Part shown: positions 29,491 through 33,260 of the stretch, in pieces
Layout of the letters: every line of letters starts with the position of its first letter
Position numbering within the stretch: position 1 is the first letter of the stretch
IMG/VR virus record: IMGVR_UViG_3300027710_000010
Coordinates: 1 to 53,762 of that record
Reading direction: 5' to 3' (one strand)
DNA length: 53,762 bases
From: a virus
Lineage: Duplodnaviria; Heunggongvirae; Uroviricota; Caudoviricetes
Program-made: the position numbers and the translations under genes
Notes under the pieces: model-generated
Seen by the model: only the letters and a program-made list of their open reading frames with translations
What the model was told of the DNA's origin: nothing
The model's database searches: none

Positions 29491-30510
29491 TTACTTGGTT
29501 GTGATGTATTTGTGAAAGTTAAATGAGGCTAGATTTTTAGCCTTACTTTCACACATTATATCAAATTGGTCCCAGAATGTTGAGGCCCATTCATTAACTT
29601 CTTTATTCCAATAGAAGTTTGAGTGGGCTCTCATTTTTTGTTTCTTGTAACCACTGGCTAACAATTTAGCATGATCTGGACGAGTATTGGTACAGTGATT
29701 AATCAAATAGTCTTCACGACTAACTGAGTAGTGCATAGTTGGTCTTAGACCACGCCAAGATTCAACGACACGTAGTACCCTCGGGTCTGTAGGATCAATG
29801 TATTCACCTTCTCGAATCCAGTGATGATGTATATCCATAACAATGGGCAGGATATCAGTTAGTTCTAAGCAGTCCCCCAATCCCCACGAGTTTTCTTCGT
29901 TTTCGATTGTGATGCAGTTTCTTGCTTCGGGGGTAAGTTTTTTGTAGGCAGCTCGAATACCTTGGGGACCGGCTCGACCCGAGATGTGGACGTTGATTTT
30001 AAAGTCCTGAAATTGTTTACCGTAGCCCATGTACCTGACCATATCTGCATGATACTCAAACTCCTCTATTGATCGTTGAACAATATTTTGATCAACACTT
30101 GCAAGAACAGTAAACTGACCAGGATGCATAGAAAGACGGGTACCGCTTTTACGAGCACTATCACCAATAGGGCTAAAATTGCGCTCAAGATACTGAACAA
30201 CGTCAGGCTTACGCCAAAAATAACTCCAACTACGCTCGGTATAAGCAGGAAGAATGTCGCTACTAAGGCGAACCATCCTAAGATTTTCATGTTGCTCCCC
30301 TACTCGGTCAACTAACTTTTTTGTGGCTGTAATATTGCCTACCATTATGTCCCACAGCTTTTGCTCTGCGACATCCTTGGTCTGTCTATTTAACCAGGAT
30401 ATGGTAGTTCCCCCTGTGTTAAATTGTTTAGCATCGTCCTTAGGACTAATACCATCAACTTGATCTGGGCGATCAATCCATTTACATGCGAAGCCTATAC
30501 GTTTTTTCAT
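29491..30510 (-). CDS. uvsE: UV-damage endonuclease (UvsE/UVDE family)
   Basis: RIGFAC, RLSSD, LSMHPGQF, IENEE, DIHHH motifs. Start at 30510 preferred because 30516 abuts the -10 box. Confidence 0.92.
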   Translation of the reverse strand: MKKRIGFACKWIDRPDQVDGISPKDDAKQFNTGGTTISWLNRQTKDVAEQKLWDIMVGNITATKKLVDRVGEQHENLRMVRLSSDILPAYTERSWSYFWRKPDVVQYLERNFSPIGDSARKSGTRLSMHPGQFTVLASVDQNIVQRSIEEFEYHADMVRYMGYGKQFQDFKINVHISGRAGPQGIRAAYKKLTPEARNCITIENEENSWGLGDCLELTDILPIVMDIHHHWIREGEYIDPTDPRVLRVVESWRGLRPTMHYSVSREDYLINHCTNTRPDHAKLLASGYKKQKMRAHSNFYWNKEVNEWASTFWDQFDIMCESKAKNLASFNFHKYITTK

Positions 30511-30516
30511 ATTCAT

Positions 30517-30545: not shown

Positions 30546-31366
30546 TATATACTTGTATGATTTTTGATTTTTATGGCAACTTTGGTGCTCTAAATAGTCC
30601 CCCAATTTTTGAAGCATTTGAAATTGGATTAAAGAAGCACGGGCATGAAGTAAGACACCATTCCGGCGATGGTGACGTAGCAGTGATTTGGAGTGTACTT
30701 TGGTATGGAAGGATGGCGTCAAATTATCCAATTTGGCAAAAATATCGTAACCAAAATAAACCTGTTATTGTTTTAGAAGTTGGAGCACTGAAAAGAGACG
30801 TTACTTGGAAGATCGGTATTAACGGAATCAACATGGGATCTTACTTTGTCAATAACAATATGGACAGTAGTAGGATAAACAGTTTTGGATTAACATTAGA
30901 TGACTGGAAAACAGGTTCTAATATTATTATTTGTAGTCAGCATGACCGCAGCCAGCAATGGCAGGGAAATAAATCCTTAGATCAATGGGTAACTGACACT
31001 GTCAATGAATTGAAAAAACACACAGACAAACCAATTAAGTTACGCCCGCATCCAAGATGTCCAGTTCGAGGCATTTCAAATATCAAAATTGACACTACTA
31101 CACCGTTTGCAACTGATTTAGCAACTGCATGGGCAGTAGTCAACTGGAATTCTAATCCCGGAATCGAATCAATAATCCACGGCGTACCTTCTTTTGTCGG
31201 TCCTACCAGTCTAGCCAGTCCCGTAGCCAATTTGCAGTTATCGCAAATAGCAAATCCAAATAAGCCTGACAGACAACAATGGTTTAACAACCTTGCTTGG
31301 ACAGAGTGGACAGTGGATGAAATGACTAAAGGTATTCCTCAGGAATACATTATCGCCAGTTTTTAA
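30539..31366 (+). CDS. Glycosyltransferase/capsule-modification-like protein
   Basis: IKLRPHP and VNWNSNPGIESIIHGVP resemble GT-B/KpsS-like C-terminal motifs; start may be 30557. Confidence 0.5.
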   Translation: MSIYTCMIFDFYGNFGALNSPPIFEAFEIGLKKHGHEVRHHSGDGDVAVIWSVLWYGRMASNYPIWQKYRNQNKPVIVLEVGALKRDVTWKIGINGINMGSYFVNNNMDSSRINSFGLTLDDWKTGSNIIICSQHDRSQQWQGNKSLDQWVTDTVNELKKHTDKPIKLRPHPRCPVRGISNIKIDTTTPFATDLATAWAVVNWNSNPGIESIIHGVPSFVGPTSLASPVANLQLSQIANPNKPDRQQWFNNLAWTEWTVDEMTKGIPQEYIIASF

Positions 31367-32045
31367 CTATAACTGGATCTTCAATAGTGTGAACATGTGG
31401 GTATCCATGAAATGCAATGATTGATGTGCTATCATGTATCGCTGGGTCTCTAATAGTTTTAAATTTACTTTGCGGACCTAAGGTGGTAAGCTCGTCCCTA
31501 CTACGAATTTCCCACTTGTAGCTACGTATCCATTCGTCAGGGAAGAATTTGATTTTGTCTCTGCACAATGACCATATCCAGTCTTGATCACCGTGATATT
31601 TTCTAGCAACATTTGGATCTGTTTCAAACCTATCCCAAATTTCAGAAAACTTTCCTGCTGGCCACTTGAGTACAGCACTACCTAACTTTTGATAATCTGG
31701 TCTAAAGACACGTCCAACATCTCGTAGGCCTACAAATTCTTCAGGAAGGTAATCCATATAATGATCAATACCTTTTACAATGACCATGTCTAGGTCAATA
31801 TAAAAATTAGTATCACCTTCTGGAAAATGATCTGCTTTAAATATGTAAGGCTTCCACCACCAACCTTGTATATTGTTGTGTGGTAGTAGTCTTACTTCTA
31901 TTCCAGGATTTAAATCTTTAGGGTCATCTGTAAAGCATACAAATCTATGAGGCATCCTGAGATGCCTCTGAATCATATTATATAGATTATTAGCATAGGC
32001 AGTACTATACTTTGTACCGTGCTTTAAACAAATGACGTTTAACAT
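31350..32045 (-). CDS. GT-A glycosyltransferase-like protein
   Basis: FVCFTDD, WWWKPYIF, DLD (DxD), GDQDW, FHGYPH motifs. Confidence 0.7.
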   Translation of the reverse strand: MLNVICLKHGTKYSTAYANNLYNMIQRHLRMPHRFVCFTDDPKDLNPGIEVRLLPHNNIQGWWWKPYIFKADHFPEGDTNFYIDLDMVIVKGIDHYMDYLPEEFVGLRDVGRVFRPDYQKLGSAVLKWPAGKFSEIWDRFETDPNVARKYHGDQDWIWSLCRDKIKFFPDEWIRSYKWEIRSRDELTTLGPQSKFKTIRDPAIHDSTSIIAFHGYPHVHTIEDPVIVKNWR

Positions 32046-32569
32046 TAACCTTCGTAGACTGCACTGTTGCCAGCATGTTCAAATACTTCAACTGAACGAA
32101 GTTTAACTCCGGCACCGACTGGATAACGTGCTTCAAAAAGGCGACCGTCTGGATGCGTCCAACTTGTGCCTGCTTGGTATGCTATCAAGATTTCGTTCAT
32201 TGTCTTATAAGCTAATTCGGCAAACTTTTCGCAACCAACTGCTTCTACTAGACGCAAATCTAGTACACCACCTTCTGCTTGTTTACCTAACTTGGCAAGT
32301 TCTTTAAACTTTGGAAGATGCGGATCGTCCAATGCCATAACAGTGGTGTGGTCAAACTGCCACTCACTCCACTCTTTAAATGCCTTAAGTCCACCAAAGT
32401 CCATAACCCAGTTGCGGTCATCCAATGTTTCTGATTCGAAAATTAATTTGATACCAATTGAGTATCCGTGTAGTAATGAGCAGTGACTATGTGTACTTCT
32501 CCACTGTCTAAAACAGCATGAAAGGCCGCGGTCGTTACCGTATGTTTTTGTTGAAAGATATTTTGCCAT
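32045..32569 (-). CDS. queD: 6-carboxy-5,6,7,8-tetrahydropterin synthase (QueD/PTPS family)
   Basis: HCSLLHGY, MDFGGLK, FDH, VFEH motifs. Start moved to ATG 32569 (AAGGA RBS). Confidence 0.85.
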   Translation of the reverse strand: MAKYLSTKTYGNDRGLSCCFRQWRSTHSHCSLLHGYSIGIKLIFESETLDDRNWVMDFGGLKAFKEWSEWQFDHTTVMALDDPHLPKFKELAKLGKQAEGGVLDLRLVEAVGCEKFAELAYKTMNEILIAYQAGTSWTHPDGRLFEARYPVGAGVKLRSVEVFEHAGNSAVYEG

Positions 32570-32636
32570 TGTTGTTTTCCTTGTTAACAATGACACGCAG
32601 AGTTTATATTGCGGGATGAGCGTCTAAGTCCGCATA
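32565..32636 (-). promoter_or_regulatory. Candidate preQ1-I-like riboswitch variant with start-codon-sequestering stem
   Basis: UGCGG/CCGCA P1 stem, loop ending AUC, A-rich tail AUAUAAAC, ACGC/GCGU pseudoknot, then UGUCAUUGUU/AACAAUGGCA stem over the AUG. Confidence 0.55.
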
Positions 32637-32641
32637 TAGTA

Positions 32642-32669
32642 ATTATACACGAATTACATCTAAAGTCAA
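32642..32669 (-). promoter_or_regulatory. sigma70-type promoter TTGACT-N16-TATAAT for queD
   Basis: Predicted start site near 32635, at the 5' edge of the leader stem. Confidence 0.7.
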
Positions 32670-33260
32670 ATTTCTGATATTCATCCACTCAACTGGATTT
32701 ACCCAATCGTCGTTGTGCCAATGTGTAAATTCTATATCAGGGAAGCTGTCAAAAATTTTCTTTAAATGGTATATCCAATAACTATGATTTACTGGCTTAT
32801 CTGTGGCCTTGCCATAGTTTTGTGTGTCTTTATAAATGTTGTTTAACTGTTTTGATGCGCTGTACATATCAAAGCCTAATAGATTAACTTGTTTAGGCTT
32901 CATATAACATGCAACTAATATGGCAAATGGTCCAGTATTCCAGTGCCAAGGATCATCAATTCTATCAGTACCAATATAAGGCAATGGCGGCACAACAGAA
33001 ACATTAGGATATTGTGTATAATGATTGACCCAGTCGGGTCTTGTATACACAGGAACGTTTTTATAAAGCGGGTTTGCTACGATTTCGTTGACCATGCGTC
33101 GGTCTACTGCTACAATTTGATTGCATACAAATTCTCTATGTATGGCATTGCAACCAATTGTATATCCTAACGATTTTAGTTCGTAAGATTTACGACTTTC
33201 GCCATTACCTACGACCCAAATTTCACTGGGACTGTATTTGTCCAAATGGCATCCATTCAC
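32643..33260 (-). CDS. Sialyltransferase/MAF-flag10-like Rossmann protein (sugar-transfer-related)
   Basis: VVGNGESR...IGCNAIHRE...LLGFD pattern; start may be TTG 33245. Confidence 0.45.
   Translation of the reverse strand: MNGCHLDKYSPSEIWVVGNGESRKSYELKSLGYTIGCNAIHREFVCNQIVAVDRRMVNEIVANPLYKNVPVYTRPDWVNHYTQYPNVSVVPPLPYIGTDRIDDPWHWNTGPFAILVACYMKPKQVNLLGFDMYSASKQLNNIYKDTQNYGKATDKPVNHSYWIYHLKKIFDSFPDIEFTHWHNDDWVNPVEWMNIRNLTLDVIRV

What the first reader, a model, noticed from the sequence alone, without database searches (positions are those of the whole stretch)
32565..32669. Candidate phage riboswitch: preQ1-I-like pseudoknot variant controlling queD
Seen (minus strand): a sigma70 promoter starts RNA at about 32635: UGCGG-ACUUAGACGCUCAUC-CCGCA-AUAUAAACUCU-GCGU. 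This gives a 5-bp P1, a loop ending AUC, an A-rich tail and a 4-bp ACGC/GCGU pseudoknot. The pseudoknot's 3' strand abuts a 10-bp stem (UGUCAUUGUU/AACAAUGGCA) that buries the AUG with the AAGGA RBS in its loop. Established: preQ1-I riboswitches are small H-type pseudoknots with a 5-bp P1 and A-rich L3 that precede que genes. Differences: the usual UUC after P1 is ACU and the loop is longer. Inference: a variant aptamer, perhaps for preQ0, CPH4, guanine or another pathway metabolite, giving feedback control of a phage deazaguanine pathway.
Basis: partly seen in the sequence, partly recalled or inferred. Interest (0 to 1): 0.85.

Follow-up and report, generated by a model that had tools for sequence, protein, structure and literature searches.

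The report
Phage queD-leader pseudoknot riboswitch candidate
The short leader in front of this giant lake phage's queD-like gene folds into a small RNA pseudoknot that hundreds of uncultured phages keep with compensating base changes; it matches no catalogued RNA family and looks like a new, virus-only relative of the preQ1 riboswitch, wired to switch translation on rather than off.

Summary
On the minus strand, a near-consensus promoter (TTGACT-16-TATAAT) starts an RNA at about 32635. That RNA folds as an H-type pseudoknot at 32634-32592. P1 is 5 bp (UGCGG/CCGCA). P2 is GACGC/GUGUC plus CA/UG across an invariant U.C mismatch, not the proposed ACGC/GCGU.

About 195 distinct versions lie upstream of QueD/PTPS-like genes in uncultured phage contigs. 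These genes fall into several subfamilies with only 22-40% protein identity. P1, P2 and an L3-P1 triple interaction all covary, through many independent events.

No Rfam family matches, preQ1-I included. The motif was not found in cultured phages. In bacterial genomes it appeared only on short MAG contigs that look phage-derived.

The P2 3' strand overlaps the hairpin that buries the AUG. The same holds in 228 of 230 distinct leaders. Pseudoknot formation should therefore open the ribosome site, giving ON logic rather than feedback repression.

The pocket resembles preQ1-I: an invariant C before the P1 3' strand and an A-rich L3. The ligand is unknown. This phage lineage has FolE but no DpdA/TGT.

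The scan found this same motif earlier in at least 8 other genomes, with the same verdict.

The parts
32664..32669 (-). -35 hexamer TTGACT
   Evidence: Read directly. Promoter scan scores 11 of 12 with a 16-nt spacer.
32642..32647 (-). -10 hexamer TATAAT. It overlaps the TAA stop (32645-32643) of the upstream ORF. The predicted start is about A32635, one base before P1.
   Evidence: In 49 of 242 distinct relatives a sigma-70-like promoter ends mostly 6-9 nt before P1, against about 6 expected.
32630..32634 (-). P1 5' strand, UGCGG
   Evidence: P1 is paired in 99.7-100% of cells, and 3 of its 5 pairs covary. The free positions were complementary in 100 of 100 and 96 of 100 unfiltered pattern hits.
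32625..32629 (-). L1, ACUUA. C32628 and U32627 are invariant across 165 distinct parsed motifs. The rest varies in sequence and length.
   Evidence: Column composition; alignments A1 and A4.
32620..32624 (-). P2b 5' strand, GACGC. It acts as the anti-anti-start strand.
   Evidence: It pairs with 32596-32592. All core pairs covary, with 10-46 independent Watson-Crick type switches per pair on the protein tree.
32617..32619 (-). U32619, the invariant U of a U.C mismatch, followed by the P2a 5' strand C32618 A32617.
   Evidence: U.C is found in 237 of 237 sequences. The C-G pair becomes U-A once, and the A-U pair becomes G-C in at least 3 events, with no one-sided changes.
32615..32616 (-). L2, U then C. 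C32615 is invariant and lies immediately 5' of the P1 3' strand, the same place as the ligand-pairing cytosine of preQ1-I.
   Evidence: C in 165 of 165. The preceding base is U 119, C 30, A 16. The preQ1-I comparison comes from PMC11625349.
32610..32614 (-). P1 3' strand, CCGCA
32600..32609 (-). L3, AUAUAAACUC. Three A's (32607, 32605, 32603) and the final UC are invariant. Positions 32606 and 32604 covary with the middle pair of P1.
   Evidence: mutual information; 16 of 17 and 15 of 17 independent contrasts go the same way and none the other way, p about 3e-5 and 6e-5.
32597..32599 (-). P2a 3' strand U32599 G32598, followed by C32597, the invariant C of the U.C mismatch.
32592..32596 (-). 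P2b 3' strand, GUGUC. This is the switch strand; 4 of its 5 nt also belong to the AUG-sequestering stem.
32564..32595 (-). Expression platform: a 10-bp hairpin, UGUCAUUGUU (32595-32586) with AACAAUGGCA (32573-32564). The AUG (32569-32567) lies in the 3' arm and the SD AAGGA (32582-32578) lies in the 12-nt loop.
   Evidence: It is the MFE and centroid helix at -9.3 kcal/mol. Only 6 weak pairs (-1.1 kcal/mol) remain if P2b forms.
32045..32569 (-). Regulated gene: a 174-aa QueD-like enzyme of the PTPS (T-fold) family.
   Evidence: Pfam PF01242, E 5.9e-13. TIGR03367 QueD at 35.9 bits, below its cut-off of 89.25. phrog_2389 'QueD-like', E 3.3e-33. 45-50% identity to QueD-like genes of cultured phages.
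31350..32045 (-). The next gene in the same transcription unit: a 231-aa glycosyltransferase-like protein whose start overlaps the queD stop.
   Evidence: phrog_1962 glycosyltransferase, E 2.1e-23. No Pfam hit.

Best explanation
The 5' leader of the phage QueD-like mRNA carries a 43-nt H-type pseudoknot aptamer of a previously uncatalogued class. It works as a translational ON riboswitch.

Shown:
- P1 is 5 bp.
- P2 is 5 core pairs, then an invariant U.C mismatch, then 2 nearly invariant pairs.
- L3 covaries with the middle pair of P1, which points to base triples in the P1 groove.
- The junction between P1 and P2 is lined by invariant unpaired bases: C and U in L1, C in L2, and UC at the end of L3.
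- The P2 3' strand is also the 5' arm of a hairpin that pairs the start codon. In other clades it pairs the Shine-Dalgarno sequence instead.

Inferred:
- Without ligand, the more stable hairpin forms and blocks initiation.
- A small ligand with a guanine-like face (a 7-deazapurine such as preQ1, preQ0 or CDG, or a pterin such as the QueD substrate 7,8-dihydroneopterin triphosphate) stacks between P1 and P2 and pairs with the invariant L2 cytosine.
- That locks P2, holds the switch strand, and frees the AUG and SD so that QueD is made.

Architecturally it works like a preQ1-I riboswitch with a longer P2 and L3 and with inverted output. It is not a member of that Rfam family.
For: (1) Structure.
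- In 139-149 distinct sequences, 87-91% of cells are paired, against about 71% in shuffles and 32-55% when the partners are slid. 0 of 500 shuffles reach the observed covariation.
- On a tree of the downstream proteins, each varying pair shows many independent Watson-Crick type switches: 43, 13 and 4 in P1, 10-46 in the P2b core, and 3 and 1 in P2a.
- RNAalifold recovers P1 on its own.
- P1 complementarity is not caused by filtering.
- L3-P1 triple covariation has p about 3e-5.

(2) Riboswitch hallmarks.
- The invariant bases sit in loops at the helical junction.
- One conserved aptamer is joined to different expression platforms: AUG-sequestering in 180 leaders and SD-sequestering in 48.
- It lies at the transcript's 5' end, behind sigma-70-like or TAAATA promoters.
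- It has a tight gene association: 141 of 145 distinct motif instances are followed directly by a QueD-like ORF. In three of the other 4 a QueD-like gene is the second gene, and the fourth is a 306-aa PTPS-like ORF.
- Protein-selected sets carry it in 76 of 80, about 77 of 80 and 75 of 80 loci.
- The QueD subfamilies involved share only 22-40% identity.
- There is one copy per genome.

(3) ON wiring.
- The switch strand against its own RBS gives -9.1 kcal/mol, against -6.7 with permuted partners and -3.5 when shuffled.
- In the window the hairpin is -9.3 kcal/mol and falls to -1.1 when P2b forms.

(4) Likeness to preQ1-I.
- A 5-bp P1 topped by G-C, [U/C/A]C before the P1 3' strand, and an A-rich L3 (compared).

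(5) A metabolite is the simplest effector shared by phages of different lineages, environments and promoter classes.
Against: - No binding or reporter experiment exists, and the ligand is unknown.
- ON logic is unusual for a biosynthetic gene, and all validated preQ1 riboswitches are OFF switches.
- The two P2a pairs rest on few compensatory events (1 and 3).
- The outer two P2b pairs are poorly supported (35-54% paired).
- Part of the sequence set came from a pattern that fixed UCUGC, UCAH and the G/C bases of P1. Invariance at those positions therefore rests mainly on the protein-selected sets, which the model then aligned.
- The protein tree used to count events is a FastTree, and recombination would inflate the counts.
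- Pseudoknot energies cannot be computed with the tools used, so the ON/OFF balance is only approximate.
- This genome shows no complete 7-deazaguanine or pterin pathway.
Confidence: 0.6

Rival explanations
1. The pseudoknot is the operator of a protein, not of a metabolite. The protein could be QueD itself (autoregulation) or another phage or host RNA-binding protein. It would recognise the conserved junction and either stabilise or melt P2, in the manner of the T4 gene 32 leader pseudoknot or the T4 gp43 and RegA operators.
For: Phage leaders with autoregulatory pseudoknots are established knowledge (T4 gene 32). The only gene that always accompanies the RNA is QueD itself. Invariant loop bases fit a protein footprint as well as they fit a ligand pocket.
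Against: The associated QueD-like proteins fall to 22-40% identity while the RNA junction stays invariant. No other gene is a constant neighbour. The compact preQ1-I-like pocket, with its specificity-type cytosine and A-rich L3, is typical of small-molecule aptamers.
Confidence: 0.15
2. It is a ligand-independent structural device. The pseudoknot and the hairpin would form a folding-kinetics or temperature-sensitive gate, or a 5' stabiliser, that sets a fixed level or timing of QueD translation without sensing anything specific.
For: Mutually exclusive helices alone can tune translation. The motif sits at the very 5' end of the transcript, where structures often protect mRNA.
Against: A pure folding gate needs only complementarity. 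It does not explain absolute conservation of about 15 unpaired or mismatched bases (U.C in 237 of 237; C and U in L1; C in L2; A, A, A and UC in L3) through many helix-swapping events.
Confidence: 0.13
3. One reading: an OFF-type preQ1-I variant in which a 4-bp ACGC/GCGU P2 stacks on the AUG-burying stem and strengthens it, so the pathway's end product represses queD.
For: ACGC and GCGU are complementary in this one sequence. Known preQ1-I switches are OFF switches before que genes.
Against: That register pairs in only 43% of cells across homologues, while the register 2 nt further 3' pairs in 83% and covaries. The supported P2 shares 4 nt with the stem, so the two cannot coexist. Rfam's preQ1-I model gives no hit even at E <= 10.
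Confidence: 0.05

Closest known systems
preQ1-I riboswitch (Rfam RF00522; types I-III, for example B. subtilis queC, T. tengcongensis, C. antarcticus, E. coli; review PMC11625349)
   Same: Both are small H-type pseudoknots in the leader of a queuosine-pathway-type gene. Both have a 5-bp P1 capped by a G-C pair. Both have an invariant cytosine directly 5' of the P1 3' strand, preceded mostly by U (as in type I) or A (types II and III). Both have an A-rich L3 following P1, and here L3 covaries with P1 as expected for groove triples. In both, L1 is short with conserved pyrimidines.
   Different: No match to the Rfam model even at E <= 10. L1 begins NCU, not UU or UC. P2 is 7-8 pairs including an invariant U.C mismatch, instead of 3-4 pairs. 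L2 is 2 nt instead of 4-6. L3 is 10 nt ending in an invariant UC. The aptamer is 43-49 nt rather than about 34. The P2 3' strand is not the SD but the anti-start or anti-SD strand, so the predicted output is ON. The motif has been found only on viral or virus-like contigs. Ligand binding is untested.
T4 gene 32 mRNA leader pseudoknot (protein-mediated translational autoregulation)
   Same: Both are H-type pseudoknots at the 5' end of a T4-like phage mRNA leader that control translation of the downstream gene.
   Different: The gene 32 element nucleates cooperative binding of gp32 and has no conserved ligand-like pocket. Here the loops are invariant and the downstream platform is a competing hairpin. 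No protein partner is known.
Other H-type pseudoknot riboswitches with groove triples (SAM-II/SAM-V, guanidine-III, preQ1-II)
   Same: All have a compact pseudoknot with a loop lying in a helix groove, and the ligand is bound at or near the triplex. Guanidine-III is thought to act as an ON switch.
   Different: No sequence or model similarity: the Rfam 15 scan of the window and of two motif instances found none of these families. The gene associations differ.

Membership tests
preQ1-I riboswitch (RF00522) | Scores against the Rfam covariance model at or near the gathering threshold | tested here: not met
   No Rfam hit at gathering in the whole window. No preQ1 hit at E <= 10 in window 32450-32750, nor in the most B. 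subtilis-like instance, L132:2230-2330.
preQ1-I riboswitch (RF00522) | H-type pseudoknot with a roughly 5-bp P1 and a P2 formed between the P1 loop and the 3' tail | tested here: met
   P1 is 5 bp and P2 runs from loop to tail, both with covariation. P2 is about twice as long as in preQ1-I.
preQ1-I riboswitch (RF00522) | Specificity cytosine immediately 5' of the P1 3' strand, preceded by U (type I) or A (types II, III) | tested here: met
   C in 165 of 165. The preceding base is U 119, C 30, A 16. The feature definition comes from PMC11625349. Whether this C pairs with a ligand is not testable here.
preQ1-I riboswitch (RF00522) | A-rich L3 after P1 that docks in the P1 minor groove | tested here: met
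   Three invariant A's in L3. L3 positions 33 and 35 covary with P1 pair 3-27 in 15-16 of 17 independent contrasts. Docking itself is inferred.
preQ1-I riboswitch (RF00522) | UU (types I, III) or U-C L1 directly after the P1 5' strand | tested here: not met
   L1 begins N-C-U, with C and U invariant and N being A 61, U 59, C 45.
preQ1-I riboswitch (RF00522) | The P2 3' strand includes the start of the SD (or P2 favours a terminator), so that ligand binding turns expression OFF | tested here: not met
   The P2 3' strand lies 10-38 nt upstream of the start codon and pairs with the AUG or SD region in 228 of 230 leaders, so P2 formation frees the RBS.
preQ1-I riboswitch (RF00522) | Binds preQ1 (or preQ0) selectively | not testable with these tools
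   Needs in-line probing, ITC or a reporter.
preQ1-I riboswitch (RF00522) | Association with queuosine or preQ1 biosynthesis or transport genes | tested here: inconclusive
   The motif is always with a QueD/PTPS-family gene. A QueE-like gene follows in 18 of 251 operons, while the other partners are glycosyltransferases, KdsA-like, UvdE, SDR and others. Six genomes of this lineage, the window's own included, have no TGT/DpdA.
Protein-operated leader pseudoknot (T4 gene 32 type) | Specific binding by the encoded or another phage protein | not testable with these tools
   No constant protein partner other than QueD was found.

The most novel reading that the evidence does not exclude
This is the first riboswitch class confined to viruses. 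It would be an offshoot of the preQ1-I fold with its output rewired into a translational ON switch. It would sense not preQ1 but the substrate side of the QueD/PTPS step, meaning 7,8-dihydroneopterin triphosphate or another pterin made by the phage's own FolE. That would give feed-forward control of a phage pterin or 7-deazapurine pathway, and it would be the first natural aptamer for such a pterin intermediate.
Probability: 0.2. Interest if true: 0.95.

Novelty: new variant of a known kind. Interest (0 to 1): 0.8.

Why it matters
Riboswitches are almost entirely a bacterial story. The few seen in phages are copies of bacterial classes. A structured, covarying aptamer candidate that is abundant in uncultured freshwater and marine phages would be new on three counts:
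- It is absent from Rfam 15 and from the bacterial genomes searched.
- It is tied to one enzyme family.
- It is wired as an ON switch.

If validated, it would be a new riboswitch class and would show a preQ1-I-like fold evolving a new output, and perhaps a new ligand.

It would also give a direct handle on what the widespread but unexplained phage FolE plus QueD-like genes are for in phages that lack DpdA. The ligand would name the metabolite the phage is monitoring.

The RNA is only 43-49 nt, so in-line probing, ITC and crystallography are immediately feasible.

Tried and rejected
- Rfam: gathering scan of the whole window and permissive scans of two instances gave no preQ1 or other real hit. 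The DUF2815-RNA (E 7.5) and snoU83D (E 3.2) matches are chance level.
- Megablast of the locus against deposited phages found nothing.
- Blastn of two motif versions against deposited phages gave only chance-level hits. The best, LR756508.1, lies inside an ORF and scores 5.6 bits with the model.
- The closest cultured-phage QueD examined, Synechococcus phage BUCT-ZZ01, sits mid-operon with no leader and no motif.
- The pattern scan of 185,579 species genomes gave 12 hits. Five are chance hits with a non-complementary P1. Seven are real, but all lie on MAG contigs, mostly short, that look phage-derived.
- 151 genomes of the order of one such MAG showed no other hit.
- There is no second copy in this genome or in five related jumbo genomes.
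- A short leader ORF (AUG CGG ACU UAG at the transcript start) is not conserved and was dismissed.
- One search failed on wrong coordinates.
- One search had a parsing bug; its P2 numbers are void and are replaced.
- Literature searches for a queD/PTPS-associated or phage-specific preQ1-like motif found no description.

Full report
**Where it is.** The window is the first 53.8 kb of a 299.6-kb IMG/VR record of a T4-like jumbo phage, 83% complete. Everything below is on the minus strand.
- A near-consensus promoter, TTGACT (32669-32664), 16 nt, TATAAT (32647-32642), scores 11 of 12 and is the best site in the region.
- Its -10 box overlaps the stop codon of the upstream ORF (32643..33260).
- Transcription should start at about A32635, one base before the structure.
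- The regulated ORF starts at AUG 32569-32567. It encodes a 174-aa T-fold enzyme: Pfam PTPS, E 5.9e-13; phrog_2389 'QueD-like', E 3.3e-33; TIGR03367 QueD at only 35.9 bits against a cut-off of 89.25; and 45-50% identity to QueD-like genes of cultured phages.
- A glycosyltransferase-like gene follows.

**Checking the observation.**
- P1 (UGCGG/CCGCA), the loop ending AUC, the A-rich tail and the 10-bp stem that pairs the AUG are all present.
- The proposed 4-bp P2 (ACGC/GCGU) fails the comparative test: 43% of cells paired across 139 distinct homologues.
- The register 2 nt further 3' holds: GACGC (32624-32620) with GUGUC (32596-32592), 83% paired, and every pair shows changes on both sides.
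- This P2 shares UGUC with the AUG-burying stem, so the two structures compete rather than stack.

**Comparative evidence.** Three sets were chosen by protein, not by RNA.
- A search with the QueD-like protein found more than 580 viral contigs, and their leaders showed an obvious shared motif.
- Two further protein-seeded searches used QueD subfamilies only about 40% identical to the window's.
- The covariance model R1 finds the motif just upstream in 76 of 80, about 77 of 80 and 75 of 80 loci. Most of the rest are cut off at the 5' end.
- In all, about 195 distinct motif sequences were collected.
- Of 145 distinct instances with a callable downstream ORF, 141 are followed directly by a QueD/PTPS-like ORF. 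In three of the other four a cupin, a methyltransferase or an unknown ORF is inserted before a QueD-like gene. The fourth is a 306-aa PTPS-like protein.
- There is one copy per genome here and in five related 214-382-kb genomes.

**Consensus structure.** Numbering follows alignment A1.
- P1: columns 1-5 with 25-29.
- L1: N-C-U plus 0-7 variable nt.
- P2b: core columns 15-19 with 43-47.
- An invariant U20.C42 mismatch.
- P2a: C21-G41 and A22-U40.
- L2: Y23-C24.
- L3: columns 30-39, W-U-A-H-A-H-A-Y-U-C.

**Statistics.**
- 87-91% of cells are paired, against 71-72% in shuffles and 32-55% with slid partners.
- 0 of 500 shuffles reach the observed covariation score.
- P1 complementarity is not produced by my filter. 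In 100 distinct unfiltered pattern hits, the two free pairs were complementary in 100 and 96.
- RNAalifold recovers P1 on its own.
- Cells count sequences, not events, so I mapped pair types onto a FastTree of 237 downstream proteins. The minimum numbers of switches between Watson-Crick types are 43, 13 and 4 for the three varying P1 pairs, 46, 33, 27, 26 and 10 for the P2b core, and 3 and 1 for P2a. U.C is 237 of 237.
- The two outermost P2b pairs are only 35-54% paired and are not part of the consensus.
- The P2a pairs were invariant in the first set. Rare variants from the protein-selected sets then showed A-U to G-C and C-G to U-A, with no one-sided changes.
- Mutual information singled out L3 positions 33 and 35 as covarying with P1 pair 3-27: C-G goes with Y33 and A35, while A-U or U-A goes with A33 and H35.
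- In 17 phylogenetically independent contrasts, these two positions went the same way 16 and 15 times and never the other way, p about 3e-5 and 6e-5.
- That is the signature of L3 bases reading the P1 groove, as expected for this pseudoknot topology.

**How it most likely works.**
- In 228 of 230 distinct leaders, the MFE fold of the part 3' of P1 pairs the P2 3' strand with the start-codon region (180) or the SD region (48).
- The switch strand binds its own RBS region at -9.1 kcal/mol on average, against -6.7 with permuted partners and -3.5 when shuffled.
- The P2 5' strand therefore mimics the start region. Where the second codon changes, both change.
- In the window the hairpin is worth -9.3 kcal/mol and P1 -6.1. 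P2 is worth about -5 to -6. Once P2b forms, only -1.1 kcal/mol of hairpin is left.
- So the hairpin (OFF) is favoured by a few kcal/mol unless something stabilises the pseudoknot. Since the aptamer is transcribed first, a bound ligand could lock it before the 3' arm appears.
- The conserved unpaired bases all line the P1/P2 junction.
- The invariant cytosine directly before the P1 3' strand occupies the place of the cytosine that pairs with preQ1 in class I preQ1 riboswitches (PMC11625349).
- My reading is therefore a translational ON riboswitch for a ligand with a guanine-like face.
- What is shown: the structure, its conservation, the competition with the RBS hairpin, and the gene association.
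- What is inferred: ligand binding, the pocket, and the direction of the response.

**Which ligand?** This is not settled.
- This record has no TGT/DpdA, FolE or QueE, and only a weak QueC-type hit inside a radical-SAM cassette.
- Five related jumbo genomes, two of them at least 98% complete, all have FolE, none has TGT/DpdA, and QueC matches are weak.
- In one of them FolE lies about 750 nt upstream of the motif on the same strand.
- Operon partners after QueD are heterogeneous: an unknown 378-aa protein, glycosyltransferase-like proteins, UvdE, KdsA-like, QueE-like (18 of 251), an epimerase/dehydratase, an SDR, DAO, and methyltransferases.
- The only constant is the QueD/PTPS step, and the wiring is ON. 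The enzyme's substrate pool (7,8-dihydroneopterin triphosphate or a related pterin) is therefore at least as plausible as preQ1, preQ0 or CDG.

**Comparison with known families.**
- The closest is the preQ1-I riboswitch. It shares the fold type, the 5-bp P1 with a G-C cap, the [U/A]C before the P1 3' strand, and the A-rich L3.
- Several defining features were tested and not met: no match to RF00522 at any threshold tried, a different L1, a P2 twice as long with an invariant mismatch, a 2-nt L2, a longer L3, and a P2 3' strand that is the anti-RBS strand rather than the SD.
- I therefore do not file it as a preQ1-I member. It works like one, with inverted output.
- The main non-riboswitch rivals are a protein operator of the T4 gene 32 kind and a ligand-free folding gate.

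**Distribution and novelty.**
- The motif was not found in deposited cultured phages.
- In 185,579 species-representative genomes, the strict pattern hit only 12 places. Seven are real, all on MAG contigs, mostly short, that look phage-derived.
- 151 genomes of the order of one such MAG had no other hit.
- Five literature searches found no description.
- Earlier notes of this scan report the same motif in at least eight other genomes, with the same verdict: ON-type, preQ1-I-like, absent from Rfam. I reached my reading before seeing them and tested it independently.
- Not mentioned in those summaries: the P2a extension across the U.C mismatch, the L3-P1 triple covariation, the event counts on a tree, and the FolE-yes, DpdA-no context.

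**Limits.**
- Part of the sequence set came from a pattern that fixed some consensus bases.
- Alignments A2 and A3 were fitted to the model.
- The event counts depend on a quick protein tree.
- Pseudoknot energies are approximations.

Noticed in passing
window 32642-32647 and 32643-32645 (minus strand): The TAA stop codon of the upstream 205-aa ORF (32643..33260, phrog_30607, unknown function) lies inside the -10 hexamer TATAAT of the queD promoter, so the coding sequence and the promoter overlap.
   Followed up: partly
related genomes G001-G005 (contigs of L128, L135, L168, L050, L157): All five related jumbo phage genomes encode GTP cyclohydrolase I (FolE). None has a TGT/DpdA homologue, and QueC hits are weak. 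In G003, FolE (82777-83304) lies about 750 nt upstream of the motif (81986-82030) on the same strand. FolE was not found in the window's own 83%-complete record.
   Followed up: partly
L373:797-832: A second, partial copy of the motif (P1 5' strand, loop and P1 3' strand, but no L3 or P2 3' tail; 21.8 bits) lies about 600 nt upstream of the complete copy in the same contig. It may be a decayed duplicate.
   Followed up: no
upstream regions of motif copies in L003-L376: Relatives use different promoter types before the same RNA. 49 of 242 have a sigma-70-like -35/-10 pair, as in the window. 59 of 242 have a T4-late-like TAAATA 2-16 nt upstream (about 6 expected for each). In the marine 149-aa QueD subfamily, the motif follows directly on the upstream gene's stop codon with no promoter.
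   Followed up: partly
window 29491-30516 (minus) and loci such as L102:10086-11252: A UvdE-type UV-damage endonuclease gene sits near queD in the window, and it recurs as a same-strand neighbour after queD in 33 related operons. The linkage is unexplained.
   Followed up: no
L184 and L177 (operons after the motif): Some operons put the QueD/PTPS-like gene together with an SDR, glycosyltransferase-like proteins, a KdsA-like DAHP_synth_1 enzyme and FkbM-type methyltransferases. This gene set is more reminiscent of pterin-glycoside or sugar tailoring than of 7-deazaguanine synthesis.
   Followed up: partly
window 32624-32635 (minus strand): The predicted transcript begins with a 3-codon mini-ORF (AUG CGG ACU UAG) that overlaps P1. 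It is absent from most relatives, whose P1 starts AG, so it is probably meaningless.
   Followed up: yes
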